Shown: piece by piece, positions 5,920-47,743 of the stretch
How positions within the stretch are numbered: the stretch's first letter is position 1
Layout: every line of letters begins with the position of its first letter
Origin: a virus
Strand: one strand, 5' to 3'
Virus record (IMG/VR): IMGVR_UViG_3300044684_000278
Coordinates: 32,001-96,000 of that record
DNA length: 64,000 nucleotides
Program-made: the position numbers and the translations under genes
The notes under the pieces: model-generated
Seen by the model: only the letters and a program-made list of their open reading frames with translations
What the model was told of the DNA's origin: nothing
Database searches by the model: none

Positions 5920-6249
5920 TTACTTTTTGTTAATTAGTTCACTAATCTGGTCACAGAGATCAGGGTTTGCATAGAGTGCCCCTGTGACCTTTCTTAAGAA
6001 ATCTTTCTGTTGTTCCTGGGTGGCAGTACGCCAGTCCAGTGATGGTCTGTACAGCTCAAAGAAGTCCTGAAACACCCATTCAGTGAGTTTCTCCTGCTTC
6101 TCGTGCTGAAATAGTCCTCTGCCGTCCTTATGTACCTGTGATTTGGTTACTGTCAGGTACGTTCCATATTTGTTATAATCTTTTCCATGTGATTCACGGA
6201 ATTGAGGTTTGAGCCTTACCCTGTCTCCGGGGTTAAATAGGTATTCCAT
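5920..6249 (-). CDS. Small SH3/KOW-like protein
   Basis: FNPGDRVRLK N-terminus like its neighbours; C-terminus differs from the family helix. Confidence 0.6.
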   Translation of the reverse strand: MEYLFNPGDRVRLKPQFRESHGKDYNKYGTYLTVTKSQVHKDGRGLFQHEKQEKLTEWVFQDFFELYRPSLDWRTATQEQQKDFLRKVTGALYANPDLCDQISELINKK

Positions 6250-6511
6250 GCTCCAGTTGCTTACTTAATTTGTCCAGTGCTTCTTCAATATCTTGTATTG
6301 AGTAGTACAACTCCAGCTCACCTACATATCCTTTCCATCCCGATTGTTCCGGGAAATCAATATAAACCTTCATCCCAAGTGTACTTATAGTTTCATCAGG
6401 AAGTAACTGCCTTATTACACCCACAGATTTTGCAGTAACACTTCCCCAATCGTGATAGGGATTGGTTGCAATAACACGGACTGTGTCTCCCACTTTAAAG
6501 TAAGTTTCCAT
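6233..6511 (-). CDS. SH3/CPH-like head + conserved C-terminal helix family member
   Basis: FKVGDTVRV...WG...IDFPEQSGWKG; tail IQDIEEALDKLSKQL. Confidence 0.75.
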   Translation of the reverse strand: METYFKVGDTVRVIATNPYHDWGSVTAKSVGVIRQLLPDETISTLGMKVYIDFPEQSGWKGYVGELELYYSIQDIEEALDKLSKQLEHGIPI

Positions 6512-6719
6512 CTTTCATCCTTTCTTCTAACTTGGTTAGGGCATTCATTAGATCGTCTATACTAACAGCATCCACTTTTTCAAAAAAAGAAATATCAATC
6601 CAGCTCTTAGGTAAGTTTTCCTTGCACTTGAATGTTAGTTTACCTGAATTATCTGAATATGGATCTTCCCTAAATTTCTTTTGTGGTATGATCCTGTCAC
6701 CTATCTTAAAGTTTTCCAT
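6495..6719 (-). CDS. Conserved C-terminal helix family member
   Basis: FKIGDRI head; tail IDDLMNALTKLEERMK. Confidence 0.7.
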   Translation of the reverse strand: MENFKIGDRIIPQKKFREDPYSDNSGKLTFKCKENLPKSWIDISFFEKVDAVSIDDLMNALTKLEERMKDGNLL

Positions 6720-6999
6720 TTTCCATCCTTTCTATCTTCTCATCCAGGGCCTGGAACAAATCTTCTATGGATGGACCTACAAGCTCGTAGTAGCTACAGG
6801 TCCAGCTACCAGTTCTGCCTTTTGTTTTGAATAACCAGTTACCCTCGGCATTTTTACTAAGCTCAGATATAGTGACACCATTTATCAGCAGATTCTTTAC
6901 TTCAGGATTTTTAATGGTACTAAACCTTTCAAAATATGCATCAGGATTTCTCAGCCTGACTGTATCCCCTACTTTAAAAGGAGCTTCATTGTCTGTCAT
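6706..6999 (-). CDS. Conserved C-terminal helix family member
   Basis: FKVGDTVRL head; tail IEDLFQALDEKIERME; paralog of 6986-7300. Confidence 0.75.
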   Translation of the reverse strand: MTDNEAPFKVGDTVRLRNPDAYFERFSTIKNPEVKNLLINGVTISELSKNAEGNWLFKTKGRTGSWTCSYYELVGPSIEDLFQALDEKIERMENGKL

Positions 7000-7300
7000 T
7001 TTCCATCCTCCTTATTTTATCGTCAAGAGCATTAAATAAATTTTCTATAGTAGGATCAGTAAGCTGATAAAACATGCAGCTAAATCCTCCATTAAATCCA
7101 TATTCAGCAGGATCAAACCTCCATCTTTCTGACCCTTTTGAATAGTAGATTTTTTTTATGGTAACTCCTTCGGTTAAGAGAGATACTTTACGTGCCTCTT
7201 TCTTGATATGAGGAAATTCATTAAAGTATTCATCCGGATTAATTAATCTGACTTTATCTCCTATGTTAAAAGGAGGCTCACCATTTGATTCTGGTTCCAT
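6986..7300 (-). CDS. Conserved C-terminal helix family member
   Basis: FNIGDKVRL head; tail IENLFNALDDKIRRME. Confidence 0.75.
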   Translation of the reverse strand: MEPESNGEPPFNIGDKVRLINPDEYFNEFPHIKKEARKVSLLTEGVTIKKIYYSKGSERWRFDPAEYGFNGGFSCMFYQLTDPTIENLFNALDDKIRRMENDRQ

Positions 7301-8033
7301 TGGCTTGCTGTAATAATTCGTTACACTTCATGAATACATCTTCACAATCCCATTCTGCCTGGTTGTTATACGCAGCAGAGGCCGGGTGGGATGCAAATAG
7401 TTTGTAATGCCTGTCCTCATCAATGAGATCAGCCAGTTCCTGTGCTTTCCTGCCCAGGAAGATGAATACCACACCTGAGTTGATCGTGTTCAGCATGTCC
7501 AGCAGGTAACTCATGAAAGGTCTCCATATGCCCTGATGCTTCCCAGGACTGCCCAGCTCAACGGAGAGTGCTGTGTTTAATAGTAAAACTCCCTGGTTAG
7601 CCCATCGGGTCAGATCAGGATCATTACTGGGAATCTCATTTTCTTCTGAAGGATGCTTGAACGGATCTCCCGCCCACAGGTAGGTGGTCTTGTAAATAGC
7701 TTTCAGTATATACTGCAGGCTGGGCTGGGCCTCACCTGTAAGGGAGCAGGAGAATGCCATTCCGTCGGCAGTTCCAAGTTGTGGGTAGGGATCCTGTCCG
7801 ACGATGACTACTTTAAGATCCTTGTAAGGGCAGTTCTCAAAAGCAGAGAACATATGCTTTAAGGGTGGACCAAAACGTCTTCCCTGGGCCCGTTCATCAT
7901 GCAGGAACTGCAGGATCTTCTCAAAGTCAGAAGCCATCACAAATCCCTTCAGTTTGTCCGCCCATCCACTGGGACGGAGTTTGTCTACAAGCTTCGTCTG
8001 AATTTCTTGTAGATCAATTGTTGGATTACTCAT
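7278..8033 (-). CDS. ung: Uracil-DNA glycosylase (family 1)
   Basis: GQDPY, GVLLLNTAL and HPAS motifs. Confidence 0.93.
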   Translation of the reverse strand: MSNPTIDLQEIQTKLVDKLRPSGWADKLKGFVMASDFEKILQFLHDERAQGRRFGPPLKHMFSAFENCPYKDLKVVIVGQDPYPQLGTADGMAFSCSLTGEAQPSLQYILKAIYKTTYLWAGDPFKHPSEENEIPSNDPDLTRWANQGVLLLNTALSVELGSPGKHQGIWRPFMSYLLDMLNTINSGVVFIFLGRKAQELADLIDEDRHYKLFASHPASAAYNNQAEWDCEDVFMKCNELLQQANGTRIKW

Positions 8034-8082
8034 TTTATAGACTTATTGTTATATTTGGATTACACCATTAGATAGTTACCCT

Positions 8083-8352
8083 ATGTCTGAAATTCACTAC
8101 TTACCCAAGGATGCCGTTGTTCCTGTAGAAGTTGGAGCCGGTCTCCTGTTCCGGCTCCAAAAACTACTACTGTTCCTGGTTCATGATAAAACCAAGGAAG
8201 AGCTGGAAGAACTTAAGGAGCGTGTGGAGAAAAACGATATTCCAGAAGACAGCTGGATGTTCCACTACATCACTATTCATTCCTTCATTACCATCGTGGA
8301 ACACCAGGCGATGACCAAAAAGATCACAGTGACCAAAGACCCGGAAGCTTAA
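8083..8352 (+). CDS. Hypothetical protein
   Basis: 89-aa ORF divergent from ung, fills the gap. Confidence 0.55.
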   Translation: MSEIHYLPKDAVVPVEVGAGLLFRLQKLLLFLVHDKTKEELEELKERVEKNDIPEDSWMFHYITIHSFITIVEHQAMTKKITVTKDPEA

Positions 8353-11372: not shown

Positions 11373-11373
11373 G

Positions 11374-18830: not shown

Positions 18831-19079
18831 TTAAGTTCCTCCTTTTTGTTTTTGTTCCAGGGTATTCAGGGCTTCCATGATCTGGTCAATGACCGGTGTC
18901 TCACGTTTAAGAAAAGTAAAAGCTTTAACATCCCACATAGGAGATCCGTCACCAGCTTTATAACTCCCAGTATCTTCAATTACTTTGCCCCTGAAGTAGT
19001 TTCCTCTTATTTCTTGAACCCTTACCTTAGTTCCAAGTTTACCTACTACTATATCACCGGGCTTAAATGGCTCATTCAT
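18831..19079 (-). CDS. Conserved C-terminal helix family member
   Basis: FKPGDIV head; tail PVIDQIMEALNTLEQKQK. Confidence 0.7.
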   Translation of the reverse strand: MNEPFKPGDIVVGKLGTKVRVQEIRGNYFRGKVIEDTGSYKAGDGSPMWDVKAFTFLKRETPVIDQIMEALNTLEQKQKGGT

Positions 19080-20769: not shown

Positions 20770-22023
20770 TTACTTGTTTAATTGTGCATCTGTTTCCGGA
20801 GTCACATTGATATACTTCCCACCTGTACGCTCACAAAGACTTTTCAGCTCATTGTTAGGTCCGTTGTAAAGAGTGATGGCATTGGTCTTCCAGGTAAGCT
20901 TGTCTGTCTTCACGCTATCCTGGCCATCGTTGATCACCAGGATCTCCGGCTGATCTACGGACAGGTCAATGTTCAGATTGAACAGCTTGTGGTTTTCCAT
21001 GATCTCTTTACGGATCCTGTCAATGATGAGTCCCACTTCTGTGTCTCCACCACTGGGGTTATTGTTGAAGTGTTTCCAGAACTCCAGGGCAGTCTCCCGG
21101 TTATAGATATGATACCATTTAAACGTACCATGCTCCAGGTTGTTTTTGGTCAGGAAGAAGCAGAAGAAGATCTCACACTCTTCCTTGATACAGTAAGATA
21201 ACCTGTCGGCCACGATGGACATCACCCACTGTTGTTTCTGTGGGGAGTTCATGGATCCTGAAAAGTCCACCAGCATGATGATCTTCTGCTTGGACTCTTC
21301 ACTTGTTACCGGGGTGTTGACGATCAGGTCCTTGGTTACCAGTTTCTGGTTGAAGTTGGGCATCATACGCTGATACAGCTGGCTGTTTACCAGCTCACCA
21401 TATTCTGCCATCCTTTTCTGCTTATGTACCTGGGAGTTGGTCACCCTTCTCTCATGCACCACCTTCTTGATCTCAAAGCTCTTACCGAAGGCTTCCACCA
21501 TGGCAATCCGCTGCATCATATCCAGCCTTTTATCAAAGTCCTGCATGTCTGCCCGGTTGTCAAAGAGCTCATTTATAGTAGAAGACTCAAACTGCTCCTC
21601 ATCCGGCACGCCAACAAATACCTCTGTGAGGTCTTTCTCCGTCATCTTATCCGGGGAAGGCATAGCTCCGCCCTTTTGTTTCTGCTTCCGCTTCATCAGC
21701 ATGAGCAGGTTCATAGCCTTGTCCAAAGGAGAGATGCCAGGAACAAACTTGGTCCTTAAAGCCTCATAGAATCCTTCCTTGGCGTTTGCCCTTTCCAGCT
21801 CCTCCGGACTTAGCTTAGCCGGATCTTTGTATTTATCTTCCACGATGTCATAGGACATCACCATCTTGTGGTAGAAGAAACGGGCCAGCTCTTTGGCTAC
21901 ATGGGTATTCTGCAGGTCAAGACCCTTGCGGTGGAGAGTGCTCTCCACCACATAGGTCATTGGGGTCCAGTAATACTCATGTTCCCGTATGTAAAAATCT
22001 TCTTGCTTATTTCTCAATAACAT
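20770..22023 (-). CDS. vWA (MIDAS) domain protein (pair 2)
   Basis: DFSGSM, GGDT, INDG. Confidence 0.85.
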   Translation of the reverse strand: MLLRNKQEDFYIREHEYYWTPMTYVVESTLHRKGLDLQNTHVAKELARFFYHKMVMSYDIVEDKYKDPAKLSPEELERANAKEGFYEALRTKFVPGISPLDKAMNLLMLMKRKQKQKGGAMPSPDKMTEKDLTEVFVGVPDEEQFESSTINELFDNRADMQDFDKRLDMMQRIAMVEAFGKSFEIKKVVHERRVTNSQVHKQKRMAEYGELVNSQLYQRMMPNFNQKLVTKDLIVNTPVTSEESKQKIIMLVDFSGSMNSPQKQQWVMSIVADRLSYCIKEECEIFFCFFLTKNNLEHGTFKWYHIYNRETALEFWKHFNNNPSGGDTEVGLIIDRIRKEIMENHKLFNLNIDLSVDQPEILVINDGQDSVKTDKLTWKTNAITLYNGPNNELKSLCERTGGKYINVTPETDAQLNK

Positions 22024-23146
22024 CTTGGATCTCCTTCAGTTTAGATTGTAAGAATTTTTCATAGCCGGATACGCGGCCACTGATCTGTTTCATCAGCTCG
22101 TCATCCACCTTCTTGGCTTTCAGAGTCTGAATATCCGCATGGATCTCTTTCAGTACCACTTTGGCACGACGAACATTGTCCAGGGAATTCAGGGTGACAC
22201 TATTGGCCTCTTTGATGTTACCATCAATCTTAGCTATCAGGTCCTCAATCACCTGTACATTTTTGTACTTGGAGATCTCAGCATCCACCAGGGATTTGTT
22301 CTTGCCAGAGAAATCTGCCATGAACTTCAGGCCACCCATATCACCACCGGTCTTCTCCAGGATACGGGCTGCTTTAATGGCAGTACGCGGAGAAACCACG
22401 GTTCCGTTCTGGGCCAGTTTCTCCATGATATAAGAAAGCTGGCTGAATGGCTTGCCGAACATTTTGTTGAACATGAAGGAATAAGTATCCTTAGTGTATG
22501 CATTCCACTCTACTTTATACTCTAAAGGAAAACGTTCCATGAGGGCCTTCAGTGAGTCGTTCTTGGTGAACTCTTCACGGGTCTTGTTAGTACAGCACAC
22601 GATGAGCTTGGTCTTGATCTCAAATACCTGTGTGCCGTTACGGAACTTGCCGGAGGTCAGGATGTCTTTTAACTGTTCCAGGATATAATCCGGAGCATCC
22701 ATCAACTCTTCAAAGATCACGTACTCAAAGTTCATGAAAGAGTTTTCTACCAGGAATTCCAGGGCACCTGTGTCATTGAACTTCTTGATGTCAATGCCAC
22801 CAAACAGGGAATCGGTAGTAGTACCGCTACCCATTGTCTTTACAAACGGCTCAATACCTTTTGATTCAAAGAAGTATTCAGTGAACTCTGATTTACCGTG
22901 ACCGCCTTTACCAAACAGGATGATATTCTCTCCGGTCAGGAGTGCCAAGTCAAGGGCCTTGTTCAGATCTTCCATGAATACGAACTTGGTAGGATCTGAT
23001 TTGGTTTTTGGAGCAGCAGCAGGAGCTTCTGCAGGAGCAGGAGTTTCTTTTCCGGTTTCAGCTTGAGCTGATTTGTTTTTTAACATGCTTGGTGCTTTGA
23101 TAGCCACACCATTGGTTTTCTTTACTGCTGTTTCAGTGGTACTCAT
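22007..23146 (-). CDS. MoxR-like AAA+ ATPase (pair 2)
   Basis: Walker A GKGGHGKS, variant Walker B VIFEE, CTN, MERFP; likely start MSTTET. Confidence 0.85.
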   Translation of the reverse strand: MSTTETAVKKTNGVAIKAPSMLKNKSAQAETGKETPAPAEAPAAAPKTKSDPTKFVFMEDLNKALDLALLTGENIILFGKGGHGKSEFTEYFFESKGIEPFVKTMGSGTTTDSLFGGIDIKKFNDTGALEFLVENSFMNFEYVIFEELMDAPDYILEQLKDILTSGKFRNGTQVFEIKTKLIVCCTNKTREEFTKNDSLKALMERFPLEYKVEWNAYTKDTYSFMFNKMFGKPFSQLSYIMEKLAQNGTVVSPRTAIKAARILEKTGGDMGGLKFMADFSGKNKSLVDAEISKYKNVQVIEDLIAKIDGNIKEANSVTLNSLDNVRRAKVVLKEIHADIQTLKAKKVDDELMKQISGRVSGYEKFLQSKLKEIQDVIEK

Positions 23147-23180
23147 GATTTTTGTGTTGATTAAATAGTGAATTATTTTG

Positions 23181-23465
23181 TTAACTGTTTTTTGCTTGTA
23201 GCTGTAAAGCCAGCCGGTCAAGGGCTGACTCAATTAGAATAATAGTGTCGGAGAGGGGATCTTTAGCAAGTTCTCTCCAGTAGTAACGACCTTCCTGGCC
23301 GTCCTCCCAGCGGACTCCTGCACCTATATCGGAGATCCATTTTGTGATGATCCCCTTTTTACCCTCTCCTCTCTTGGTTCGGTCGTTGCTGGATTTTATA
23401 CCTTCCTCAGAGATGATAACCTTTGTTCCTACCGGACCAGTACTTTGGGTAAGGTGCTTAGACAT
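23181..23465 (-). CDS. Conserved C-terminal helix family member
   Basis: VGTKV...G...VRWEDG...Y head; tail LIESALDRLALQLQ. Confidence 0.7.
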   Translation of the reverse strand: MSKHLTQSTGPVGTKVIISEEGIKSSNDRTKRGEGKKGIITKWISDIGAGVRWEDGQEGRYYWRELAKDPLSDTIILIESALDRLALQLQAKNS

Positions 23466-23793
23466 AGAACGGACTTAGTTTTTGCTTTTGCTTTTTCTCG
23501 TGCTTATCCAGCTCTATGAGTGTCTGGCGGATCAGCTCCGCACAGTTATCACACTTCTCCTGGAGGATCTTTTCTTCTGAAGGAACATATACCAGCTCCT
23601 TCATGTAATAGGCTTCCCGGTGACCGTTGGACCACAGCACGTAGCATGTGTTTCCACTACTACCATCAAGTGTCCCGATCATACCTTTACCATTTTTAAT
23701 ACGGTCTTCATGGGGAGGTGCGGTGGGACTTAACTCTACCTCAGCCCCCTTCTGGTAGTTTCCTTCGTTTACCTGGACTTTTTGTTTTGTCAT
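23458..23793 (-). CDS. SH3-like protein, divergent family member
   Basis: G...VLWSNG..Y head; tail LIRQTLIELDKHEKK. Confidence 0.6.
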   Translation of the reverse strand: MTKQKVQVNEGNYQKGAEVELSPTAPPHEDRIKNGKGMIGTLDGSSGNTCYVLWSNGHREAYYMKELVYVPSEEKILQEKCDNCAELIRQTLIELDKHEKKQKQKLSPFYV

Positions 23794-25398: not shown

Positions 25399-25701
25399 TT
25401 AGTCCTCATCATAGAGGATAGTGAACAACATTTTTTCTTCTAACTTTTCCAGCCCTGCATCCAGTTCACCGAAGATGCTATCCAGGCTGGACATTGACTC
25501 ATTATTGGCCCATTCCACACGGTATCCTTTTCCCAATTTTTCATTATACTTCTTGTCCCAGTCATCTATGTGATAAGTGTACTTGGTTCCGGCAGTACCT
25601 ACTTTTCCGTAGGTTGCCACGAACTGATTTCCACTAATCTCTTCCATTTCATAGAACTTATGACTGGAACCGTCCTTAAAAACGAGTCTTGCTTTTTTCA
25701 T
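25399..25701 (-). CDS. WGR-domain protein with the family-type C-terminal helix
   Basis: SHKFYE, TYGKVGTAG, EKLGKGY; tail LDSIFGELDAGLEKLEEKM. Confidence 0.75.
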   Translation of the reverse strand: MKKARLVFKDGSSHKFYEMEEISGNQFVATYGKVGTAGTKYTYHIDDWDKKYNEKLGKGYRVEWANNESMSSLDSIFGELDAGLEKLEEKMLFTILYDED

Positions 25702-30562: not shown

Positions 30563-30568
30563 AAATGG

Positions 30569-30904
30569 TCATTTCAGCTTTTCAGCTAATTGGTCAAGTG
30601 CTTTTTCCAGGTCTTCCATGGAAGGTGGATTCTCATAGTAGGACAGCTCATAGAGTCCTTTTTTCTCACTTATGTAGTAGCTGCAATAATCGTTGGTATC
30701 ATCCCATTTAACTAAGGCTACGTCAGTATTAATTTGTGTAAGAGTTCCTCTTGGTTTAAAACCGGTATACTTTTCTTCCCAGAGGCCACCTTTTCTTTTT
30801 CCCCAGTCAGGGCCGGGCATGACACGTAATCCGACCTTTGCGTTCAACGGGGTAATGGGTTCTCCGTGATATATTACCTTGTCACAGGATTTAGGAAAGT
30901 ACAT
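30569..30904 (-). CDS. MIB/HERC2-like head + family C-terminal helix
   Basis: VGLRVMPGPDW...VKWD...Y; tail MEDLEKALDQLAEKLK. Confidence 0.75.
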   Translation of the reverse strand: MYFPKSCDKVIYHGEPITPLNAKVGLRVMPGPDWGKRKGGLWEEKYTGFKPRGTLTQINTDVALVKWDDTNDYCSYYISEKKGLYELSYYENPPSMEDLEKALDQLAEKLK

Positions 30905-31205
30905 ATAAACTCCTTTCAAATTTTTCTTCCAATTTATCAAGGGCTTCTGTGAATTCATCCAGGGATGGCATATCCTCAACATAATACAGGTCATAAGAAT
31001 CCTTAGCTCCTGCACGGTAATCATTATCTATACAGTTATCTTCCCATTCTACAGTGACCCAACCAATAGATCCATACCTTTCCAACTCTACCAGCTTACC
31101 TATACCGGTTTTATCACCATCCTGGTCGCCCCATTCCCAGTCTTTACCCCGTTTTACACGAGCTCCTTTTTTATAGTTTTCAACTGTTACCGGTATCTCC
31201 ATCAT
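30891..31205 (-). CDS. MIB/HERC2 domain + family C-terminal helix
   Basis: GARVKRGKDWEWGDQDG...GWVTVEW...YRAGAKDSYDL is the Mib_Herc2 signature; tail LDEFTEALDKLEEKF. Confidence 0.82.
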   Translation of the reverse strand: MMEIPVTVENYKKGARVKRGKDWEWGDQDGDKTGIGKLVELERYGSIGWVTVEWEDNCIDNDYRAGAKDSYDLYYVEDMPSLDEFTEALDKLEEKFERSLYVLS

Positions 31206-31497
31206 TCCTCCTTTTCAGCTGGGAAGCAAGCCTGTTCAGAGCAGCTTCAATATCCTTAAACTCTACTTCGGGGTAGATCAGAGGAATCTTTCCAGACTTT
31301 ATCTGGTACCCTGGCCATATCCCTTTGGCAAGCTGTGGAAATCCTTTCCATTTTACCTGGATGATTTCTGAGTACTTGTGGATCTCTACAATCCTGCCCT
31401 TTTTTACTCCCTTAAACCGGGAATCGTGAGGTCCCCAGTCAGGGCCTGGAATTACTATGTCTCCAATTTTGGCAGTATTAACGTTAACTGGTTTCAT
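31180..31497 (-). CDS. MIB/HERC2-like head + family C-terminal helix
   Basis: IGDIVIPGPDW...VKW; tail FKDIEAALNRLASQLK. Confidence 0.72.
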   Translation of the reverse strand: MKPVNVNTAKIGDIVIPGPDWGPHDSRFKGVKKGRIVEIHKYSEIIQVKWKGFPQLAKGIWPGYQIKSGKIPLIYPEVEFKDIEAALNRLASQLKRRNDGDTGNS

Positions 31498-31798
31498 GAT
31501 TTATCCTTTCTTGCTTTTCAATGAGTTTCTCCACTTCCTGGAATAAGGTTGTTAAATCCTCTGTAGTTGAATCATAGACTGCCAGTTCGTATTTTCCCGC
31601 CGCTCCAATTCGGTAAGAATAGTTGAATCCTCCTGGTTTCCACCTCACATCAGCATACCATCCGGCAATGTCATCACATACTTCGGTAATAATACCATAC
31701 TGACTAACACCAACGTGATGATTCTCCGAATGATTCCAATCAGGGCCTTTGCAGACTTTCATGCCTACAAAAGCATTTTCATGCGTCACCTTTTCCAT
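31484..31798 (-). CDS. MIB/HERC2-like head + divergent C-terminal helix
   Basis: VGMKVCKGPDW...VRW...YRIGAAGKYEL; tail LTTLFQEVEKLIEK. Confidence 0.75.
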   Translation of the reverse strand: MEKVTHENAFVGMKVCKGPDWNHSENHHVGVSQYGIITEVCDDIAGWYADVRWKPGGFNYSYRIGAAGKYELAVYDSTTEDLTTLFQEVEKLIEKQERINHETS

Positions 31799-32400
31799 AG
31801 AACTTTACTCATCAGATACAGTGTTTCTATAAATATCCTGGGGATACTCAGCAGGAACTTCTTGATCTTCCTGGGAAGACGTAGCAGCCAGGCTATCAGG
31901 TTACCATGCTTTTTACCCAGCATGATGTCTGCCTGGATCTGGTCCAGTCCATCCATGATCTGCTCAATGGTCTCCTGTTTCTTCTCCACTGTAGATTCAG
32001 ATACATCTTCTGCCGGAAGGGTAGCACCTGTGTAAACAGGTTTTGAGAAAGAGGAAGATTTACCATGTGCAGCCAGGAAGTTATCTTTGTATTCCTGCCA
32101 TTGGTCCACGGTTGGGAATCCTTTTCCAGGAGAAAGTTCCTGTTCATAAACATGCCTTAAATCATGCCGTGAACTGAGTCCTGTTCTATATTTAGCTGAC
32201 TTTCCATTATCCCATTCTACTTCACAGTACAAGCCGTTCTTAAACACAATAACAATAGTCCCCATGGTTCCGGGAAGCATCTCATATATAGTAAAGGGAA
32301 AGTCAAAAGTGGTATCCCTGCACCAATCGGGACCACCCGCCATTACTCTTAGTCCGACCCTTACTTCATCATAGCGTACAGGATCTCCTGGTTTTAACAT
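31786..32400 (-). CDS. MIB/HERC2-like head, linker, family helix and extra tail
   Basis: VGLRVMAGGPDW...VEWDNG...YRTG...DL; IEQIMDGLDQI. Confidence 0.72.
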   Translation of the reverse strand: MLKPGDPVRYDEVRVGLRVMAGGPDWCRDTTFDFPFTIYEMLPGTMGTIVIVFKNGLYCEVEWDNGKSAKYRTGLSSRHDLRHVYEQELSPGKGFPTVDQWQEYKDNFLAAHGKSSSFSKPVYTGATLPAEDVSESTVEKKQETIEQIMDGLDQIQADIMLGKKHGNLIAWLLRLPRKIKKFLLSIPRIFIETLYLMSKVLWKR

Positions 32401-32726
32401 TGGTTTCCTCCTTTCTGATCTGCCACTTTAAGCAGGAGCAGATCCAGATTAAAATAGATTTGTTCAATAACAGGGAGCTGCTTCACCAGATTCCTGGGAA
32501 GTTCTTTGATGGATACCTTGAAGTACTTATTCTTCCTGTTATTCTTACAGCCCCAGGCATACTTGATTTCTTCAAACCTGAGTTTTTTGTTGTGTGTGAT
32601 CTCTTTAACTGTCAGCACCTGTCCCGGCTTTACCCAGGACTGCTCACAGTCATTTAGTATTTTGATTTTGCAGCCTATAAGGGACTGGCTGATTTCAGGA
32701 TGGATAAGATCTTCATAAGTAGCCAT
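32394..32726 (-). CDS. Conserved C-terminal helix family member
   Basis: Tail PVIEQIYFNLDLLLLKV; paralog of 32729-33037. Confidence 0.65.
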   Translation of the reverse strand: MATYEDLIHPEISQSLIGCKIKILNDCEQSWVKPGQVLTVKEITHNKKLRFEEIKYAWGCKNNRKNKYFKVSIKELPRNLVKQLPVIEQIYFNLDLLLLKVADQKGGNQC

Positions 32727-32728: not shown

Positions 32729-33037
32729 TTAACTCAGTTTATCTTCCAGCCGCTCCAGATGAAGTAGTATATCATCCATCAGCGGTGAGAGTGCTTTATC
32801 AATATGTTTTAACTCATAGATCATCTCCTGACCTTCCAGTACCTGGAATAATTTTCTACTGGAGTTATTGGCACATGACCAGTAGCGGCCTCCCATTTCC
32901 TTGATACCAAGGTTCTTTGACCGGTATGAGGAAACCGTATAGATCTGTCCGTTCTTCAGGTGATTAAACCCGTTGTTGTTCACGATCAGGATCTGTTTGC
33001 CTACCAATTCTCTGCAGGCATCAGGGAAATAGCTCAT
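32729..33037 (-). CDS. Conserved C-terminal helix family member
   Basis: Tail PLMDDILLHLERLEDKLS. Confidence 0.68.
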   Translation of the reverse strand: MSYFPDACRELVGKQILIVNNNGFNHLKNGQIYTVSSYRSKNLGIKEMGGRYWSCANNSSRKLFQVLEGQEMIYELKHIDKALSPLMDDILLHLERLEDKLS

Positions 33038-33348
33038 GGTGATTGAATTTGTAATTTGTTTTCCAGTTTGTCCAGGGCTTTCATAATCAGTTCAATATCA
33101 GCATGAAGAGAAAGAGCATGTTCTGCTATGATTACCATAGATGCATTAGGTCTTATCGCAAGTCCATAGTACCATTCATTACGGTCTTCATGCCAGTATG
33201 TTGCCATCACCTGATAAACCCTGTTAGCTACCCCGTTCACTGCTGCATATCTGTTTGTACTGGGATAATAATATCCAAAGCCGTTACAGCCATCTTTTTT
33301 GCAAGCCCTGACTTTGTCCAGGGGCTTGAATTTGGGTTCTGGTCTCAT
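33034..33348 (-). CDS. Conserved C-terminal helix family member
   Basis: PKFKPLDKV head; tail IELIMKALDKLENKLQ. Confidence 0.72.
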   Translation of the reverse strand: MRPEPKFKPLDKVRACKKDGCNGFGYYYPSTNRYAAVNGVANRVYQVMATYWHEDRNEWYYGLAIRPNASMVIIAEHALSLHADIELIMKALDKLENKLQIQSP

Positions 33349-33444
33349 AAAACCTAATAAAATGGTAAAGCATGACAGACCAAACCTGGAGAGGAGTAAG
33401 CATTACTGCCCCTGTGTCTCCATTAAGCCTGCCATGCTTATGTC

Positions 33445-33861
33445 CTACTTAATCCACAGTTGCCCTTCAACCTGTTTTTCATTAGGTTCATTGGCAGCCT
33501 TGCGTGATTTCTCTTTCATGGCCTCCAGTTTCCGGTTGATCAGATACTTGGCCACCGGTTCATAGGCACGTAAGAGCACATAGTGAACCAGCCCCTGGAT
33601 AGAGCACATTATAAAGGCCGTAAACAGAAAGTTATACAGCCAGTAGTGTGATACTACCACCACAGGGAGATCGCTCGTCAGAAGCAGGATAAACACGCAC
33701 CAGTGCCCAAAGCACCACGGGCAGTGAATCAGGTCTTCAATCTTTGTATGAAACTTGCTGATCCACTCACGGAATGGTTTGAAAATACCGGTGGATGTGA
33801 CGGTGAAGGAAACAGAGGCACAGCATAGTGCCCCCATTACCAGGAATAGGAATTCTTTCAT
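33445..33861 (-). CDS. DUF1360-like membrane protein
   Basis: IFKPFREW...LIHCPWCFGHW with TM helices. Confidence 0.7.
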   Translation of the reverse strand: MKEFLFLVMGALCCASVSFTVTSTGIFKPFREWISKFHTKIEDLIHCPWCFGHWCVFILLLTSDLPVVVVSHYWLYNFLFTAFIMCSIQGLVHYVLLRAYEPVAKYLINRKLEAMKEKSRKAANEPNEKQVEGQLWIK

Positions 33862-33862
33862 A

Positions 33863-34165
33863 TTATAATACCTCATCAGCTTCTTCAAGCCCGTCTTCCG
33901 AAATCCGGTCACCATCCTGCAGGTCCGAGTCTTCAGGCACTTCCCTTAAGATCTCAAAGTCTGCTCCCCCACACCCACAGCCTGAGTACACCACCAGCCT
34001 TACCTTGCGGGTCTTTGGCATATAAGCTCCCAGAATGTCCTCTATACTCACCTCTTCTGCCTTTTTGATCACAGGAGCTTTTTCCTGTTCCTTGTGGAAC
34101 TCTTCTCTCAGTTGGGCCAGGTTGTCCTTCTCCTGACCGGCTTTACGGTTTTTAAGCTTTTGCAT
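33863..34165 (-). CDS. Small protein with CGCGG motif
   Basis: ORF overlapping the end of the ATPase gene. Confidence 0.6.
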   Translation of the reverse strand: MQKLKNRKAGQEKDNLAQLREEFHKEQEKAPVIKKAEEVSIEDILGAYMPKTRKVRLVVYSGCGCGGADFEILREVPEDSDLQDGDRISEDGLEEADEVL

Positions 34166-35321
34166 AACTTGAGTTTATTAATTTGATTGATTCTTCCAGG
34201 TCTGCTGCAGTAACTCCCTTAGGAGTTTTCTTGGTAGTAGTCATCCTGGTCAGGGCTTTGCGTACAGCACCTTTGGCAATGGCTTCCACCATAGCTCCCG
34301 ATACTTTACTCTTACAGGGAAGACTAAATAACATATCAGCTCCTTTGATGGCCAGGTCTTCTACCTTGTCATGGCATTTTACCTTCTTAAGGTGGATCTC
34401 AAAGATCTCCTTGGTATCCGGATGATCCGGACGGTTGATGCCAATCTTCAAGTCTATCCTTCCTTCCCGGACAATAGCCTCATCCAGCGCATTAGGGAGA
34501 TTAGTGGCCAAAATGAAAATCGGGTTGTGCTCTTTTTCCAGTCCGTCCATTTCTGAAAGGAACGTAGGCACAATGGTCATCTCCACGTCTGATGATTTAC
34601 CGCTGCCTCTCTGACGGAGCAGGGCTTCTGCTTCATCCATGAAAACAACAGCACGCTGGCCGGTCTTTTTACAGTACTGGCGGGTAGCATGAAACATGTG
34701 GGCTACTTTCTGCTCTGCCTCACCTACGAACTTGCTCAGCATCTCTGCCCCTTTTACGTAAACAAAGGCTGCGGGATCCACTTTTGTGGAACCAAGGATC
34801 GTAGAGGCAATGGCTTTACCGATCAGGGTCTTGCCACATCCCGGAGGACCATAGAGTACCAGGCCGGGAAAATCTCCCAGACCCATCTCTTTTGCCAGCT
34901 CCTGGTGTTTCAGGGGCAGCTCAATGGCTTCACGGATGTTGCTTAACTGTGATTTAAGTCCACCGATCTCATTCCAGTCAATCAGGTTGAAATGAGGAAT
35001 GTCAGTTACTTTCTCCAGCTCTTTGGGAACCACGGCAATGATGGCGGATCCAATACAGATCACCTCTGTTCCCGGCTCAAGAATTTGGGTAATAGGGTCT
35101 CCGAAGATAGGCTCTTCATTCAGGAACATAACCGTTCCGTTTACCCGGTAATACTGGGCATTGTTATGAACAAAAGGGCCAGCTACAATGGTGTGTACTT
35201 CTTTTTTCTCACCAAGGAACTGCTCCAGCATCTGCTCATATTTATCAACCTGCTCTCTGAGGGCTGATAATTCGTCTGTTGGGGCTACGGGAGCCTCAAA
35301 TGTTGCTTCTTCCTGAAACAT
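34152..35321 (-). CDS. ARC/Mpa/PAN-like proteasomal-type AAA+ ATPase
   Basis: N-terminal coiled coil, OB-like LEPGTEV, IGGL, GPPGCGKT, pore loop KFVG, DEAEALLRQRGSGKSSDVEMTIVPTFLSEMDG, REGRID; likely start MFQEE. Confidence 0.82.
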   Translation of the reverse strand: MFQEEATFEAPVAPTDELSALREQVDKYEQMLEQFLGEKKEVHTIVAGPFVHNNAQYYRVNGTVMFLNEEPIFGDPITQILEPGTEVICIGSAIIAVVPKELEKVTDIPHFNLIDWNEIGGLKSQLSNIREAIELPLKHQELAKEMGLGDFPGLVLYGPPGCGKTLIGKAIASTILGSTKVDPAAFVYVKGAEMLSKFVGEAEQKVAHMFHATRQYCKKTGQRAVVFMDEAEALLRQRGSGKSSDVEMTIVPTFLSEMDGLEKEHNPIFILATNLPNALDEAIVREGRIDLKIGINRPDHPDTKEIFEIHLKKVKCHDKVEDLAIKGADMLFSLPCKSKVSGAMVEAIAKGAVRKALTRMTTTKKTPKGVTAADLEESIKLINSSYAKA

Positions 35322-35549
35322 GTTAAAGTAGGATTTATGAGTAAATAATTGTTGATGGATTAAAAAGGCCAGGACAGGAATATCCCAGGCCGTCTTACTA
35401 ACCACATAATGTTTTTGTTACGTTACTACAAAAAAAGCCGAACTTGTAGAGGTTTATTCTACAAATCCGGCTCTAACTTAGAGATATATGAGGAGTGTGG
35501 ACAACCTGAGTTCTCCACAACGTTAAGTGGTGGTGTGGGTCAACTCAGG

Positions 35550-43009: not shown

Positions 43010-43464
43010 GTTCCTCCTTTCTATGGACTCATTTGATACTCATCAAAATCCATGACCAGGAAATAGGCCAGGATCAGTGTTAAAACAATAGCAAGCCACA
43101 TTTCAGGCTGACCTCTTAAGATCAGGATGACGGGCAATAGGGTAAGGATGGCTATAATACGGAGTATAATAATCACCATAAGTGTTCTTTTACCCCTCAT
43201 AACCTATCCCTTTCTTGAAATTCATCCCGGAAGCTATCCAGGCTGGTAGCTATCCATAAAAGCATAAGCAGGATCAGGTACAGAAAAGTAGCTGTAATAA
43301 TATCCCCGGCAGACAGCTTGATCTGTAAAAACAGGGGAACAAGAAGTGCTATGGATATATAAAAGATCGTGCAGTAGCAAAATAACGTATTGAATGTTCT
43401 CATAATGCCAGGATATGTCCAAGGGTTAAGAGTAGCCCCAGGATGTATACGATAAAGAATGTTT

Positions 43465-43806
43465 TCATGATTGTTTCAGTTTTTCAGAGAGCTGGTCTAA
43501 TGCAGTCTCTATTTTGTCAATGATATGTGGATTTGTTAGCTGACTGATGTTAACGGGTCTGTTTACTTTGTCATAAGCCTCTCTTTCATAATCTTCAGCA
43601 TATCTCCAGGAATAGGATTTCCCTGCAGCACGGTAATTCAAAGGATCAAAACAGATTCTTGTGTTACCATTTGTGTCATCTCCTCTTAAGTCTATTTCTG
43701 GCCGTAACCAGTCACAGTCCTCCCGTTGCTTAAAGACATAATTCTTTTTCCATGCTGGAAACGGTGTGTCTTCCAACAAGACAATATAATCTCCCTGCTT
43801 AAACAT
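43465..43806 (-). CDS. Conserved C-terminal helix family member
   Basis: FKQGDYIV head; tail IIDKIETALDQLSEKLK. Confidence 0.75.
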   Translation of the reverse strand: MFKQGDYIVLLEDTPFPAWKKNYVFKQREDCDWLRPEIDLRGDDTNGNTRICFDPLNYRAAGKSYSWRYAEDYEREAYDKVNRPVNISQLTNPHIIDKIETALDQLSEKLKQS

Positions 43807-44143
43807 CTTTCCCCCCTTTTAACTTGTCAGTTAGTTTATCCAAAGCCTGATCAAGCAGGTCTATTACTGGAGTATAGTCCACTTCTGAAACACGGACTGG
43901 GCCTCCATTCTTATTGTAAGCCTCTATCTCTTCTGTGGTAGCTGGACGAAGATCTTTCAGACAGAAGTTAACACACCAGCGATTGTCCTCCAAGATAGTG
44001 ATGAGATTCTTTTTAGCATAATCCCAGTCAAAATTGGGTGGCCAGGTACATTTACAGATTGTACCCACAAGGTGTGAGTAACTAAACTGATCATAGTTAG
44101 CAGACTTAATGACTACAATATCTCCGTTTTTTACTGTTTCCAT
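43799..44143 (-). CDS. Conserved C-terminal helix family member
   Basis: VKNGDIVV head; tail PVIDLLDQALDKLTDKLK. Confidence 0.75.
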   Translation of the reverse strand: METVKNGDIVVIKSANYDQFSYSHLVGTICKCTWPPNFDWDYAKKNLITILEDNRWCVNFCLKDLRPATTEEIEAYNKNGGPVRVSEVDYTPVIDLLDQALDKLTDKLKGGKDV

Positions 44144-44190
44144 ACTGGTTCAGATTAAAGCCTGGAAGATGTCCCCCAGGCTTAATAGAG

Positions 44191-44367
44191 TTACACTTTC
44201 CGGACGGACAGCCGGTTGATACTTGGTCTGTCAGCAATACACAGATCACTGAACATGCTGCTGATTTCATCATGGATAGATTCCTGTGATAATTTGTTTT
44301 TTACCAGTACTTTACCGGTAATTCCAATGCCCAGTACCTTGACTGGTTTTCCATTTTGGTTTTTCAT
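44191..44367 (-). CDS. Small ORF below the track cutoff (58 aa, MKNQNGKPVKVLG...)
   Basis: ATG 44367 to TAA 44191, followed by a hairpin. Confidence 0.45.
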   Translation of the reverse strand: MKNQNGKPVKVLGIGITGKVLVKNKLSQESIHDEISSMFSDLCIADRPSINRLSVRKV

Positions 44368-46191: not shown

Positions 46192-46256
46192 GTTGATTAA
46201 AATAAAAGCCCAGGATGTAGAAACACCCCAGGCTAAACCGTCCGACTAAAATGAGT

Positions 46257-46556: not shown

Positions 46557-46586
46557 GGATTATTATAAATGAATGAGTTAATGAGT

Positions 46587-46823
46587 TTATTTGATGCCGT
46601 GGTTCATATACATGAATACAGCATAGAAATAGACAAATACCATCAGGGTGAGTGTGATCAGCAGCCCGATGTTGTCCATTTGATCGAGGAAGTCATAGTC
46701 TTTCTCCATCAGTCCCCGTTTCTGGGTCTTGCGGATGAACCAACGATATAGTTTAATATCAAACACCGGATATAGCAGTGAGATAGGAAAAACAATGAGG
46801 ATGGTTAGGATTAGGGTTTTCAT
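46587..46823 (-). CDS. Small membrane protein
   Basis: Two TM segments. Confidence 0.5.
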   Translation of the reverse strand: MKTLILTILIVFPISLLYPVFDIKLYRWFIRKTQKRGLMEKDYDFLDQMDNIGLLITLTLMVFVYFYAVFMYMNHGIK

Positions 46824-47089
46824 GATAAAACCTCCTCCGCATTAGATGTCAGTATTACTTCACTCATGGAGTCTTCAGTCCCGTTATCTACGTAGATGTA
46901 GAGCTTATCTGCTTCAATGTCTCCTACATAGGCTGTATCTCCTGAGAATCCTGTGTCTCTTAAGAGCTTAAAGGTATCCGGATCGTTTTCTTCCATCCTG
47001 TCCATGGATAATGGTGCCAATGGAAGAACCTGACCAAATGTTTTAATGTTTTCTTTTGCTACCTCTTTGGTGAATTTACGGTAGATCAT
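46820..47089 (-). CDS. Hypothetical acidic protein
   Basis: 89-aa ORF. Confidence 0.5.
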   Translation of the reverse strand: MIYRKFTKEVAKENIKTFGQVLPLAPLSMDRMEENDPDTFKLLRDTGFSGDTAYVGDIEADKLYIYVDNGTEDSMSEVILTSNAEEVLS

Positions 47090-47122
47090 AATGATATGGA
47101 TTATGTAAATGGATTGGGTTAA

Positions 47123-47437
47123 TTACTTATTTAGTTTCTTTTCAAGCTTGTTGAGGGCTGATTCTAACTGGTCTATAAGGGAAGACTCGTCCAGGACGAG
47201 CTTATCAAATTTAATCTGGGAAGCATTTTTATGACCATCCCAGATTAACTTAGCCCCAAGAGGTCTGCCGTCAGCTACTGAGTTCCAGACCCCTTTTATA
47301 GTGCCGTATTTCTTATCCTCCCAGTATTCCCAGTTGATAGCAGCATCAGTATGAAACGTTCCGTCTACTATTTCCTTGCGTGGTCTTACTCTTTTACCAG
47401 GAACACAGGTTTCCAATGTCAATAGTTGCTCTTCCAT
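47123..47437 (-). CDS. Conserved C-terminal helix family member
   Basis: LLT.ETCVPG.RV head; tail LIDQLESALNKLEKKLNK. Confidence 0.75.
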   Translation of the reverse strand: MEEQLLTLETCVPGKRVRPRKEIVDGTFHTDAAINWEYWEDKKYGTIKGVWNSVADGRPLGAKLIWDGHKNASQIKFDKLVLDESSLIDQLESALNKLEKKLNK

Positions 47438-47440
47438 AAG

Positions 47441-47743
47441 TTACTTACTTAGTTTCTGCTCCAGTGTGTCCAGAGCTGATTGTATGTTATTCCAGGAGAT
47501 GGGCACTGTTATAAGGGCAAGATCGTAGAACTCAAGATTGTGATATTCCTCTGCATCAGGTTTGTTGTCCCATACTACGTGTGCATAATTATTCTTATCA
47601 GGCATGTGAATAACAGTTCCTTCTGCATTGGGCCCTCCAATCTTTTTTATATACCTTTCAAAAGCAGGTTGATTCAGGTGGTGACTTGGCTTAACCCGTG
47701 TTCCTGGAACACAGGTTTCCTTAGTAAGCAATACTTCACTCAT
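47441..47743 (-). CDS. Conserved C-terminal helix family member
   Basis: LLTKETCVPGTRV...VVWD head; tail WNNIQSALDTLEQKLSK. Confidence 0.75.
   Translation of the reverse strand: MSEVLLTKETCVPGTRVKPSHHLNQPAFERYIKKIGGPNAEGTVIHMPDKNNYAHVVWDNKPDAEEYHNLEFYDLALITVPISWNNIQSALDTLEQKLSK

What the first reader, a model, noticed from the sequence alone, without database searches (positions are those of the whole stretch)
6233..47743. About 20 small proteins with variable heads share one C-terminal amphipathic helix: candidate modular adaptor system
Seen: genes at 6233, 6495, 6706, 6986, 18831, 23181, 23458, 25399, 30569, 30891, 31180, 31484, 31786, 32394, 32729, 33034, 43465, 43799, 47123 and 47441 carry a C-terminal helix of consensus hydrophobic-[DE]-x-hydrophobic-x-x-A-L-[DN]-x-L-x-x-K-L (e.g. 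IQDIEEALDKLSKQL, MEDLEKALDQLAEKL, IDLLDQALDKLTDKL, IDQLESALNKLEKKL); a few are weaker matches. The heads are diverse beta-barrel types (F.xGD.V KOW/SH3-like, MIB/HERC2, WGR). They form tandem overlapping arrays, three of which lie beside AAA+ machines (MoxR-vWA pair 1, MoxR-vWA pair 2, ARC/Mpa-like ATPase). Inference: variable target-binding domain plus constant docking helix is the logic of F-box/SOCS-box adaptors, so these may deliver host (defence) proteins to one phage unfoldase or scaffold. The helix loosely resembles the Pup helix (TDDLLDEIDDVL) that binds the Mpa coiled coil. A simple homo/hetero-oligomerisation helix is the alternative.
Basis: partly seen in the sequence, partly recalled or inferred. 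Interest (0 to 1): 0.9.

Follow-up and report, generated by a model that had tools for sequence, protein, structure and literature searches.

The report
Phage SH3-like proteins sharing one tail helix
An uncultured phage distantly related to crAss-like phages encodes a dozen small beta-barrel proteins that have drifted apart almost everywhere except a 15-residue helix at their end; the helix looks like a common handle whose binding partner is still unknown.

Summary
The shared C-terminal helix is real for 12 of the 20 listed genes. Leave-one-out profile scores are 16-28 bits, against a best of 9.0 in 3,800 composition-matched shuffles. Three more genes are borderline and five are not separable from chance. 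Conservation is at protein level: third-codon identity is 0.35.

The heads are less diverse than claimed. Most are SH3-fold barrels (MIB_HERC2, Tudor or KOW-like), and seven link up by profile comparison. This is mainly one old, expanded paralog family, not shuffled unrelated domains. The one clearly different head (WGR) has only a borderline helix.

The helix is a two-heptad amphipathic helix. It is 45% identical between copies, against 21% for the heads.

Outside this phage and its near-twin, I found the motif on only three small proteins.

The proposed AAA+ link is weak:
- Adjacency is marginal (4 of 7 clusters, permutation P=0.047).
- No vWA partner, proteasome or ClpP gene was detected.
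- The "Mpa-like" ATPase scores higher against VAT/Cdc48.

Co-assembly of the copies with each other is nearly as likely.

The scan has noted analogous tags, with different sequences, in other phages.

The parts
6233..6511 (-). Clear member, 92 aa. SH3-like head of class A; helix ends 6 residues before the stop.
   Evidence: Leave-one-out score 26.2 bits. The head is related to 6706 and 6986.
6495..6719 (-). Clear member, 74 aa.
   Evidence: Leave-one-out score 20.5 bits. Head-only hhalign to the MIB group gives 45% probability. The twin genome's counterpart is 48% identical.
18831..19079 (-). Clear member, 82 aa counted from the ATG. It stands alone, convergent with the integrase gene.
   Evidence: Leave-one-out score 23.2 bits. 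The 82-aa form is on record as P0050.
23181..23465 (-). Clear member, 94 aa, MIB-like head. It overlaps the start of the MoxR gene at 22007-23233.
   Evidence: Leave-one-out score 16.0 bits. The head group 23181/23458 links to the MIB group at 86.5% hhalign probability.
30569..30904 (-). Clear member with a MIB_HERC2-like head. The start codon is uncertain: 111 aa from this ATG, and the database form has 83 aa.
   Evidence: Leave-one-out score 28.2 bits. Pfam MIB_HERC2 scores 13.9 bits, below the cut-off.
30891..31205 (-). Clear member, 104 aa, canonical MIB_HERC2 head.
   Evidence: Pfam PF06701 scores 62.4 bits against a cut-off of 33.5. Leave-one-out score 16.5 bits.
31180..31497 (-). Clear member, 105 aa, MIB-like head, basic (pI 9.8).
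   Evidence: Leave-one-out score 17.4 bits. The head links are and the pI.
33034..33348 (-). Clear member, 104 aa. Its head could not be linked to any other. The gene is absent from the twin genome.
   Evidence: Leave-one-out score 22.1 bits. It has no counterpart in G001.
43465..43806 (-). Clear member, 113 aa, head class F.
   Evidence: Leave-one-out score 23.1 bits. It aligns with 43799.
43799..44143 (-). Clear member, 114 aa, head class F. Predicted as a beta barrel, a short helix and then the terminal helix at residues 91-109.
   Evidence: Leave-one-out score 22.0 bits. The AF2 model has pLDDT 71.3. Its best structural neighbours are Tudor, PWWP, KOW and CPH barrels at Z up to 5.4.
47123..47437 (-). 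Clear member, 104 aa. Predicted as a beta barrel plus a helix at residues 85-103.
   Evidence: Leave-one-out score 25.4 bits. The AF2 model has pLDDT 68.8. The head group links to the MIB group at 85% hhalign probability.
47441..47743 (-). Clear member, 100 aa, paralog of 47123.
   Evidence: It was not a seed and still scores 16.2 bits. The head relation to 47123 has E=1e-6.
6706..6999 (-). Borderline member, 97 aa. It has a variant tail that keeps the A-L-D core.
   Evidence: It scores 9.0 bits, equal to the best composition-matched shuffle.
6986..7300 (-). Borderline member, 104 aa, paralog of 6706.
   Evidence: It scores 4.3 bits. Head E=3e-14 to 6706. There is a weak Pfam hit to the Mind bomb SH3 repeat (E=0.0088).
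25399..25701 (-). WGR-domain protein, 100 aa, with only a borderline match to the helix.
   Evidence: WGR scores 29.7 bits against a cut-off of 22. The helix scores 8.9 bits.
23458..23793 (-). Head relative of 23181. Its tail is not the motif.
   Evidence: The tail scores 2.7 bits.
31484..31798 (-). MIB_HERC2 protein whose tail helix does not match the motif.
   Evidence: Pfam scores 41.8 bits. The motif score is below 0.
31786..32400 (-). 204-aa MIB-like protein. It has a weak internal helix-like stretch followed by a hydrophobic and basic C-terminal extension.
   Evidence: The motif scores 2.7 bits, 49 residues before the end. Pfam MIB_HERC2 scores 21.1 bits, below the cut-off.
32394..32726 (-). 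The motif is not supported.
   Evidence: It scores 1.3 bits. It is a paralog of 32729.
32729..33037 (-). The motif is not supported.
   Evidence: It scores 5.5 bits, within the range of the shuffles.
34152..35405 (-). Context only: a classical-clade AAA ATPase, two genes upstream of the largest array.
   Evidence: Pfam AAA scores 106.7 bits. In the PDB, VAT/Cdc48 score about 252 bits and Mpa about 169.
22007..23233 (-). Context only: a MoxR-type AAA+ gene.
   Evidence: bpMoxR scores 58.5 bits.
4108..5700 (-). Context only: a MoxR-type AAA+ gene.
   Evidence: bpMoxR scores 89.3 bits.

Best explanation
This is one old paralog family of roughly 100-residue SH3-fold proteins (MIB_HERC2, Tudor or KOW-like barrels). 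This phage has expanded it to 12 clear copies, or 15 counting borderline ones, spread over the minus-strand early and accessory block.

The barrels have diverged until most are unrecognisable to each other and range from pI 4.4 to 9.8. The last 15-19 residues stay fixed as a two-heptad amphipathic helix: h-[DE]-x-h-x-x-A-L-[DN]-x-L-x-x-K-L, usually preceded by Pro.

I read the helix as a constant docking handle. It would plug every copy into one shared binding site, on a phage or host protein not yet identified, while each barrel binds a different ligand.

Shown: the motif, its position, protein-level selection, the head relationships and the rarity of the motif elsewhere.

Inferred: that the helix acts between molecules, that its reader is a separate common partner, and that the heads bind different targets.

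A host hub protein or a virion or scaffold site are others.
For: - The helix is far more conserved than the heads: 45% against 21% mean pairwise identity, with A7, L8 and L11 invariant in 12 of 12 copies.
- Polar positions outside the a/d core are also held: D/N/T at position 9 in 12 of 12 and K/Q/R at position 14 in 12 of 12. A bare heptad pattern does not require that.
- Selection acts on the protein. Third-codon identity is 0.35, and the same codon is used in 37% of identical-residue pairs.
- The helix sits at a fixed place, 0-11 residues from the end, behind head classes that head-only profiles cannot link: 6233 class, 43465/43799, 18831 and 33034.
- In the near-twin genome (mostly 95-99% DNA identity over the window), the tail is better kept than the head in 4 of 5 counterpart pairs: 65 vs 60, 76 vs 57, 73 vs 56 and 100 vs 92%. 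One pair is reversed, 81 vs 99%.
- The helix is net acidic (mean -1.6), with acidic e positions. That does not look self-complementary.
- From general knowledge: constant terminal modules on expanded, variable families usually anchor to a shared machine. Examples are poxvirus ANK/PRANC proteins, F-box proteins, the SspB tail and phage fibre N-termini.
Against: - No partner was identified.
- No other protein in the 136-kb genome carries the helix.
- The a/d pattern (I/L at positions 1, 4, 8, 11 and 15) is exactly what a self-associating mini coiled coil looks like. The acidic N-half and basic C-half could pair antiparallel.
- Of the 7 foreign small proteins with such tails, only 3 score above the shuffles and 4 keep just a heptad-like tail. 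This fits an ancestral oligomerisation helix.
- The family is no more variable between the two strains than other small genes: 4 of 16 against 10 of 46 fall below 90%, Fisher P=0.74. There is therefore no special arms-race signal.
- Everything rests on one phage lineage, because the second genome is a near-twin.
Confidence: 0.42

Rival explanations
1. Co-assembly helix. The tail is a short coiled-coil or helix-bundle element. Through it the copies form homo-oligomers and mixed oligomers, giving multi-headed complexes. The sequence is frozen because every copy must stay compatible with all the others.
For: - The heptad a/d positions are hydrophobic in 12 of 12 copies.
- The N-half is acidic and the C-half basic, which suits antiparallel pairing.
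- Foreign, apparently single-copy relatives keep at least a heptad-like tail.
- No distinct helix-bearing hub exists in the genome.
- Genes overlap in arrays by 4-26 nt, which implies co-expression.
Against: - Two heptads are short for a stable two-stranded coiled coil.
- Both e positions are mostly acidic and position 7 (g) is an invariant Ala. This is not the usual charge pairing of parallel dimers.
- From general knowledge: paralogs that only self-associate usually diverge at their interfaces. They do not stay near-identical.
Confidence: 0.3
2. The helix docks the heads onto a phage AAA+ machine, as SspB or Pup tails dock on ClpX or Mpa, and so delivers host proteins for unfolding. The machine would be the classical AAA ATPase at 34152-35405 or one of the MoxR ATPases.
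For: - Four of 7 family clusters lie within two or fewer intervening genes of one of the four AAA+ genes, against 1.7 expected (permutation P=0.047).
- The largest array sits two genes downstream of the classical AAA gene.
- By my reading of the printed sequence, that ATPase has a short heptad-like stretch and a beta-rich segment before the AAA core. In PAN and Mpa, such a region is where adaptors dock (recalled).
Against: - The adjacency test is marginal and post hoc, and rests on one genome.
- The ATPase scores higher against VAT/Cdc48 than against Mpa.
- Its N-terminal 135 residues have no significant PDB match (best E=0.031).
- No Proteasome or CLP_protease gene is in the genome.
- The MoxR neighbours show no vWA domain.
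- In phages, MoxR pairs have been proposed as virion-assembly chaperones (passage in PMC7824862).
Confidence: 0.1
3. Intramolecular element. The helix is simply part of the fold. It packs on the barrel of its own chain, and it is conserved because it covers a conserved hydrophobic patch.
For: - Many SH3-like domains (PWWP, extended Tudor, eL21) carry C-terminal helices. Such folds are among the weak structural neighbours.
- Both AF2 models place a confident helix right after the barrel: the last blocks of the models have pLDDT 86 and 85-92.
Against: - The barrels it would pack on are not conserved (21% identity), yet the helix is.
- Other phage MIB_HERC2 proteins do without it: P0117, P0120 and the 108-aa protein in L034.
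Confidence: 0.12

Closest known systems
Lineage-specific expansions of one small domain in large phages, for example the ~35-copy zinc ribbon of Bacillus phage G (Iyer et al. 2021, PMC7824862; passages seen)
   Same: Many diverged copies of one small domain lie in a single phage genome, partly in tandem overlapping arrays. The function is unknown.
   Different: Here the domain is an SH3-fold barrel, and the most conserved part is a terminal helix outside the domain. The genome is 136 kb, not jumbo-sized.
Eukaryotic MIB_HERC2 / CPH domains of E3 ligases (Pfam PF06701)
   Same: Two members pass Pfam's cut-off, and five more link by head-only profile or phmmer comparison. These domains serve as protein-binding modules (recalled).
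   Different: The phage proteins are single domains with no ligase part, and they carry a C-terminal helix absent from the eukaryotic fragments examined. None of 52 fragments scored above -2.8 bits.
Adaptor families with a constant docking module: F-box and SOCS-box proteins, poxvirus ANK/PRANC proteins, the SspB tail that binds ClpX (all recalled)
   Same: The logic is the same: a variable binding head plus a short constant C-terminal element shared by many paralogs.
   Different: No F-box, SOCS-box or PRANC domain was detected. No receptor is known. The resemblance is functional analogy only.
Pup-Mpa/ARC pupylation-proteasome system (recalled)
   Same: A helix that could in principle bind the coiled coil of a ring ATPase. 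An AAA ATPase with an N-terminal heptad-like stretch lies nearby.
   Different: None of the 20 proteins ends in a Pup-type Gly-Gly-Gln/Glu. The genome has no Proteasome-family gene. The ATPase scores higher against VAT/Cdc48.
Terminal targeting tags: the T4 capsid-targeting sequence and encapsulin cargo-loading peptides (recalled)
   Same: A short shared terminal peptide on otherwise different small proteins.
   Different: The T4 tag is N-terminal and is cleaved. These genes lie in the early and accessory block, not the head module. Nothing here links the helix to the capsid.
C-terminal mini-zippers such as the LacI tetramerisation helix (recalled)
   Same: A short heptad helix at the very end of a globular protein.
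   Different: Those are single proteins. Here about 12 paralogs keep the same helix, polar positions included.

Membership tests
Pfam MIB_HERC2 (PF06701) | Whole-protein score above the gathering cut-off of 33.5 bits | tested here: met
   Met for 30891 (62.4 bits) and 31484 (41.8 bits). Below the cut-off for 31786 (21.1) and 30569 (13.9). No hit for the other 16. Head-only hhalign links 23181/23458 and 47123/47441 to the group at 85-86% probability.
Pfam WGR (PF05406) | Score above the cut-off of 22 bits | tested here: met
   25399-25701 scores 29.7 bits. Its helix match is only borderline at 8.9 bits.
SH3-like barrel superfold (Tudor, KOW, PWWP, CPH) | Structural match of the head to solved SH3-like barrels | tested here: inconclusive
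   For the 47123 model, the best Foldseek E-value is 0.12, with CPH, KOW, MIB_HERC2 and Tudor among the hits. For the 43799 model, the top VIA-align Z is 5.0-5.4, with FTR, Tudor, PWWP and uL24. All hits are below the level the tool calls reliable.
Two-heptad amphipathic (coiled-coil type) helix | Hydrophobic residues at a and d positions over two or more heptads, and a predicted helix | tested here: met
   Positions 1, 4, 8 and 11 are hydrophobic in 12 of 12 copies, and position 15 in 11 of 12. AF2 predicts helices at 85-103 and 91-109.
Pup-Mpa/ARC system | Pup-type C-terminal Gly-Gly-Gln/Glu on the helix-bearing protein (feature recalled) | tested here: not met
   None of the 20 translated proteins ends that way.
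Pup-Mpa/ARC system | A 20S proteasome gene in the same genome | tested here: not met
   PF00227 finds nothing in the 136,320-bp record at E<=1. The same search rings in 11 of 14 control genomes.
Pup-Mpa/ARC system | An ATPase of the Mpa/ARC type (coiled coil plus double OB plus AAA) | tested here: inconclusive
   The AAA core scores about 252 bits against VAT/Cdc48 and about 169 against Mpa. The N-terminal 135 residues have no significant match.
F-box / SOCS-box adaptors | A recognisable F-box or SOCS-box domain | tested here: not met
   No such Pfam family appears at E<=0.1 in any of the 20 proteins.
MoxR-vWA chaperone pair | A MoxR AAA+ gene next to a vWA-domain gene | tested here: inconclusive
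   MoxR is met: bpMoxR scores 89.3 and 58.5 bits. The neighbours 2347-4098 and 20770-22023 show no vWA family in Pfam at E<=1 or in PHROGs. VWA_2 matches only a 1801-aa ORF elsewhere in the genome. A divergent vWA domain is not excluded.
T4-type capsid-targeting sequence | An N-terminal tag removed by the prohead protease (recalled) | tested here: not met
   The shared element is C-terminal. Cleavage cannot be tested here.

The most novel reading that the evidence does not exclude
The helix is a docking tag. It recruits a library of a dozen SH3-fold target-binding heads to the phage's own ring ATPase, whose N-terminal heptad stretch would be the dock. This would give a phage-encoded, SspB- or Pup-like substrate-delivery system that unfolds or remodels chosen host proteins without any protease of its own.
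Probability: 0.1. Interest if true: 0.85.

Novelty: new variant of a known kind. Interest (0 to 1): 0.5.

Why it matters
Phages carry many small early proteins of unknown function. A family with a fixed handle and drifting binding heads offers a practical way in. One bait, the helix, should pull down the common partner, and each head should then identify a different target.

If the partner is a host hub or a phage unfoldase, this would be a prokaryotic-virus counterpart of the F-box and PRANC adaptor families. If the helix only bundles the copies together, the family is an ordinary expanded oligomeric family. Even then it would document MIB_HERC2-type domains as stand-alone phage proteins.

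My searches found no paper on that: 'mib-herc2' with 'bacteriophage' returned 0 papers, and the search turned up nothing relevant among its titles and abstract starts.

Tried and rejected
DNA-level explanations. I considered a conserved promoter or ribosome-binding site, or recent gene conversion. Both are rejected: third-codon identity is 0.35 and Leu codons vary freely.

Special hypervariability of the family between the two strains. Rejected: 4 of 16 family genes fall below 90%, against 10 of 46 other small genes (Fisher P=0.74). That gene list had dropped 6495, 6706, 18831 and 47441 because of overlaps.

Complex prediction. One job ran, with two copies of 30891-31205 using alignment A3. 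The verdict was 'no answer' (score 0.01 against a mark of 0.42). I count it neither for nor against binding.

Searches for more carriers of the helix:
- The search for homologous proteins with A2 returned only the phage itself and its twin (5 hits among 417 candidates).
- The same tool with A6 added only eukaryote-type MIB fragments. None of 52 scored above -2.8 bits for the helix.
- No ORF scored above 6.4 bits in 36 loci (191,557 bases), which comprise 21 terminase loci (20 relatives plus the twin's own), 2 viral MIB_HERC2 loci and 13 metagenome loci.
- None scored above 1.0 bit in 5 loci of one MAG (81,384 bases).
- The A1 profile found nothing in 5 other viral records.

Other searches without result:
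- The terminase found no relative in genome contigs.
- The helix profile against the PDB gave nothing convincing. The best hits were E=0.0018, on a fragment of a designed coronavirus construct, and E=0.0051, on VicH. Both are generic heptad helices.
- The ESM Atlas gave only unnamed viral clusters at 0.83.
- BFVD gave only uncharacterised phage proteins, best E=3.2e-3.
- Supplementary files of papers were not consulted.

Full report
WHERE THE WINDOW LIES. The window is bases 32001-96000 of a 136,320-bp IMG/VR phage record with direct terminal repeats. The record carries a large terminase, a portal and an integrase. The terminase is only about 25% identical to those of crAss-like phages of Bacteroidota. 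IMG/VR holds 20 terminase relatives at 58-71% identity, all on fragments of at most 31.8 kb. It also holds one near-twin, G001 (136,295 bp). G001 is mostly 95-99% identical in DNA across the window, with mosaic replaced segments.

THE OBSERVATION. All 20 listed ORFs exist on the minus strand.

A loose regular expression and then a profile picked out 11 tails. All share the pattern h-x-x-h-x-x-A-L-[DNT]-x-L. I tested the motif in three ways.
- Leave-one-out: each left-out tail scored 16.0-28.2 bits against the profile built from the other ten.
- Shuffles: the best of 8,400 shuffled tails of all 840 six-frame ORFs scored 7.4. The best of 3,800 shuffles of the candidate tails themselves scored 9.0.
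- Non-seed genes: 47441 scored 16.2.

This gives twelve solid members. Genes 6706 (9.0) and 25399 (8.9) sit exactly at the shuffle ceiling. Gene 6986 (4.3) is carried only by its clear paralogy to 6706. Genes 32729, 23458, 32394, 31484 and 31786 cannot be told from chance by the motif. No ORF elsewhere in the genome scores above 5.1.

The helix always lies 0-11 residues from the stop codon. In the 12-sequence alignment, A, L and L are invariant. Position 9 is D8/N3/T1 and position 14 is K8/Q3/R1. A Pro commonly sits one or two residues before the helix.

PROTEIN OR DNA SIGNAL? The signal is at the protein level. Over the 15 helix codons, pairwise identity is 0.50, 0.75 and 0.35 at codon positions 1, 2 and 3. 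Only 164 of 444 identical-residue pairs use the same codon. This rules out a nucleotide element and recent gene conversion.

THE HEADS. Pfam confirms MIB_HERC2 for 30891 and 31484. The hits for 31786 and 30569 fall below the cut-off. Pfam confirms WGR for 25399. The rest have no family.

With the tails cut off, phmmer gives five small groups. Head-only hhalign joins 23181/23458 and 47123/47441 to the MIB group at 85-86% probability. It gives 45% for 6495. It leaves the 6233 class, 32394/32729, 43465/43799, 18831 and 33034 unlinked.

All heads nevertheless open with the same K-x-G-D-x-V type strand. AF2 models of 47123 (pLDDT 68.8) and 43799 (pLDDT 71.3) are beta barrels followed by a 19-residue terminal helix. 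Their structural neighbours are weak but uniform. For 47123 they are CPH, KOW, MIB_HERC2 and Tudor, along with ribosomal SH3-like proteins. For 43799 they are Tudor, PWWP, uL24 and NusG-KOW, with Z at most 5.4.

I conclude that this is mainly one SH3-fold family that has diverged very far, not a portable helix attached to unrelated folds. The only clearly different fold, WGR, has only a borderline helix.

DISTRIBUTION. A full HMMER scan of 1.84 billion representatives with the 12-sequence profile gave 127 hits at E<=0.001. Most are long proteins with several MIB_HERC2 repeats that match the head only.

I fetched 20 of the small hits and scored their tails.
- Five are the window's own proteins.
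- Three come from the twin.
- Three foreign proteins carry the motif above the shuffle ceiling: P0067 (20.9 bits), P0049 (18.3) and P0122 (13.2).
- Four have only a heptad-like tail (-0.1 to 4.5 bits).
- Five have none.

The three foreign carriers sit on contigs of 81,590, 29,298 and 2,558 bp.

Word-based searches added no further carriers. Neither did 41 fetched loci or five other viral records. In two other phages, MIB_HERC2 occurs without the helix. One is a 108-aa protein and the other is the N-terminus of a 428-aa protein.

THE TWIN GENOME. G001 keeps ten tails scoring at least 15 bits. Several members are replaced or strongly diverged. The counterpart of 6495 is 48% identical, that of 30891 is 58% and that of 43799 is 57%. 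Gene 30569 is exchanged for a different MIB gene, and 33034 is missing.

The tail is better kept than the head in 4 of 5 pairs. This turnover is not special to the family, however. Four of 16 family genes fall below 90%, against 10 of 46 other small genes (P=0.74).

THE AAA+ LINK. Two bpMoxR genes and two further AAA genes are real. The supposed vWA partners show no vWA domain.

The ATPase at 34152-35405 belongs to the classical clade. It scores about 252 bits against VAT/Cdc48 and about 169 against Mpa. Its N-terminal 135 residues match nothing significantly. By eye they contain a short heptad stretch and a beta-rich segment.

The genome has no Proteasome or CLP_protease match. Four of 7 family clusters lie within two genes of an AAA+ gene, against 1.7 expected (P=0.047). 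That test is post hoc and rests on one genome. Iyer et al. 2021 propose that phage MoxR-vWA pairs act as virion-assembly chaperones (passage seen).

MECHANISM. The helix is amphipathic, with I/L at positions a and d over two heptads. It has an invariant Ala at a g position, acidic e positions, an acidic N-half, a basic C-half and a mean net charge of -1.6. It is 45% identical between copies, against 21% for the heads.

A dozen paralogs keep core and polar positions alike while their barrels drift and range from pI 4.4 to 9.8. That argues for one shared intermolecular constraint. I split my odds as follows.
- 0.42 for a separate common reader. This includes about 0.1 for the phage ATPase; the rest goes to a host hub, another phage protein or a virion site.
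- 0.30 for co-assembly of the copies with each other.
- 0.12 for a purely intramolecular role.

The one complex-prediction job gave no answer and counts for nothing.

COMPARISON WITH WHAT IS KNOWN. The finding works like adaptor families that have a constant docking module: F-box proteins, poxvirus PRANC proteins and the SspB tail (all recalled). It is not a member of any of them (see Membership tests). As a genomic phenomenon, it is a lineage-specific expansion of a small domain, as described for large phages (PMC7824862).

The scan's notes list analogous shared terminal tags in other uncultured phages: e1-5665326, e1-5355048 and e1-5779871. A look-up with the 30891 protein found no look-alike in another genome, so I treat those tags as different sequences. 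I did not test those notes.

VERDICT. The 'diverse heads' claim is overstated. The adaptor-to-AAA+ reading is unproven and currently weak. The family is an undescribed variant of a known kind, of moderate interest.

Noticed in passing
window 30554-30921, 33051-33360 and 42082-44295, against G001: The near-twin genome is mostly 95-99% identical across the window, but it has cassette-like replacements and single-gene indels in the accessory block. The 399-aa gene at 48430-49629 has no counterpart, and 41618-43009 is only 52% identical.
   Followed up: partly
window 31786-32400 (-): This 204-aa MIB-like protein has a weak helix-like stretch that is internal. A roughly 40-residue hydrophobic and basic C-terminal extension follows. 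It could be a membrane-associated or hub-like odd member of the array.
   Followed up: no
window 5920-6249 (-): This 109-aa protein, directly downstream of array 1, opens with the same SH3-like first strand as the family but ends in a different helical tail. It is probably a further diverged relative.
   Followed up: no
window 7278-8033 (-): The gene heading array 1 belongs to the uracil-DNA glycosylase superfamily (Pfam UDG 48.2 bits, phrog_12143).
   Followed up: no
window 34152-35405 (-): The first 28 codons of the AAA ATPase ORF look hydrophobic and out of place. The true start may be the Met at codon 29.
   Followed up: no
G000:C1:123696-124085 (+), outside the window: The genome's only VWA_2 match lies inside a 1801-aa ORF in the structural half, not next to either MoxR gene.
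   Followed up: no
window 33445-33915 (-): This 156-aa protein lies between the AAA gene and the largest array. It has hydrophobic, Cys- and Trp-rich segments and a weak DUF1360 hit (E=0.0075). It is possibly a membrane protein.
   Followed up: no
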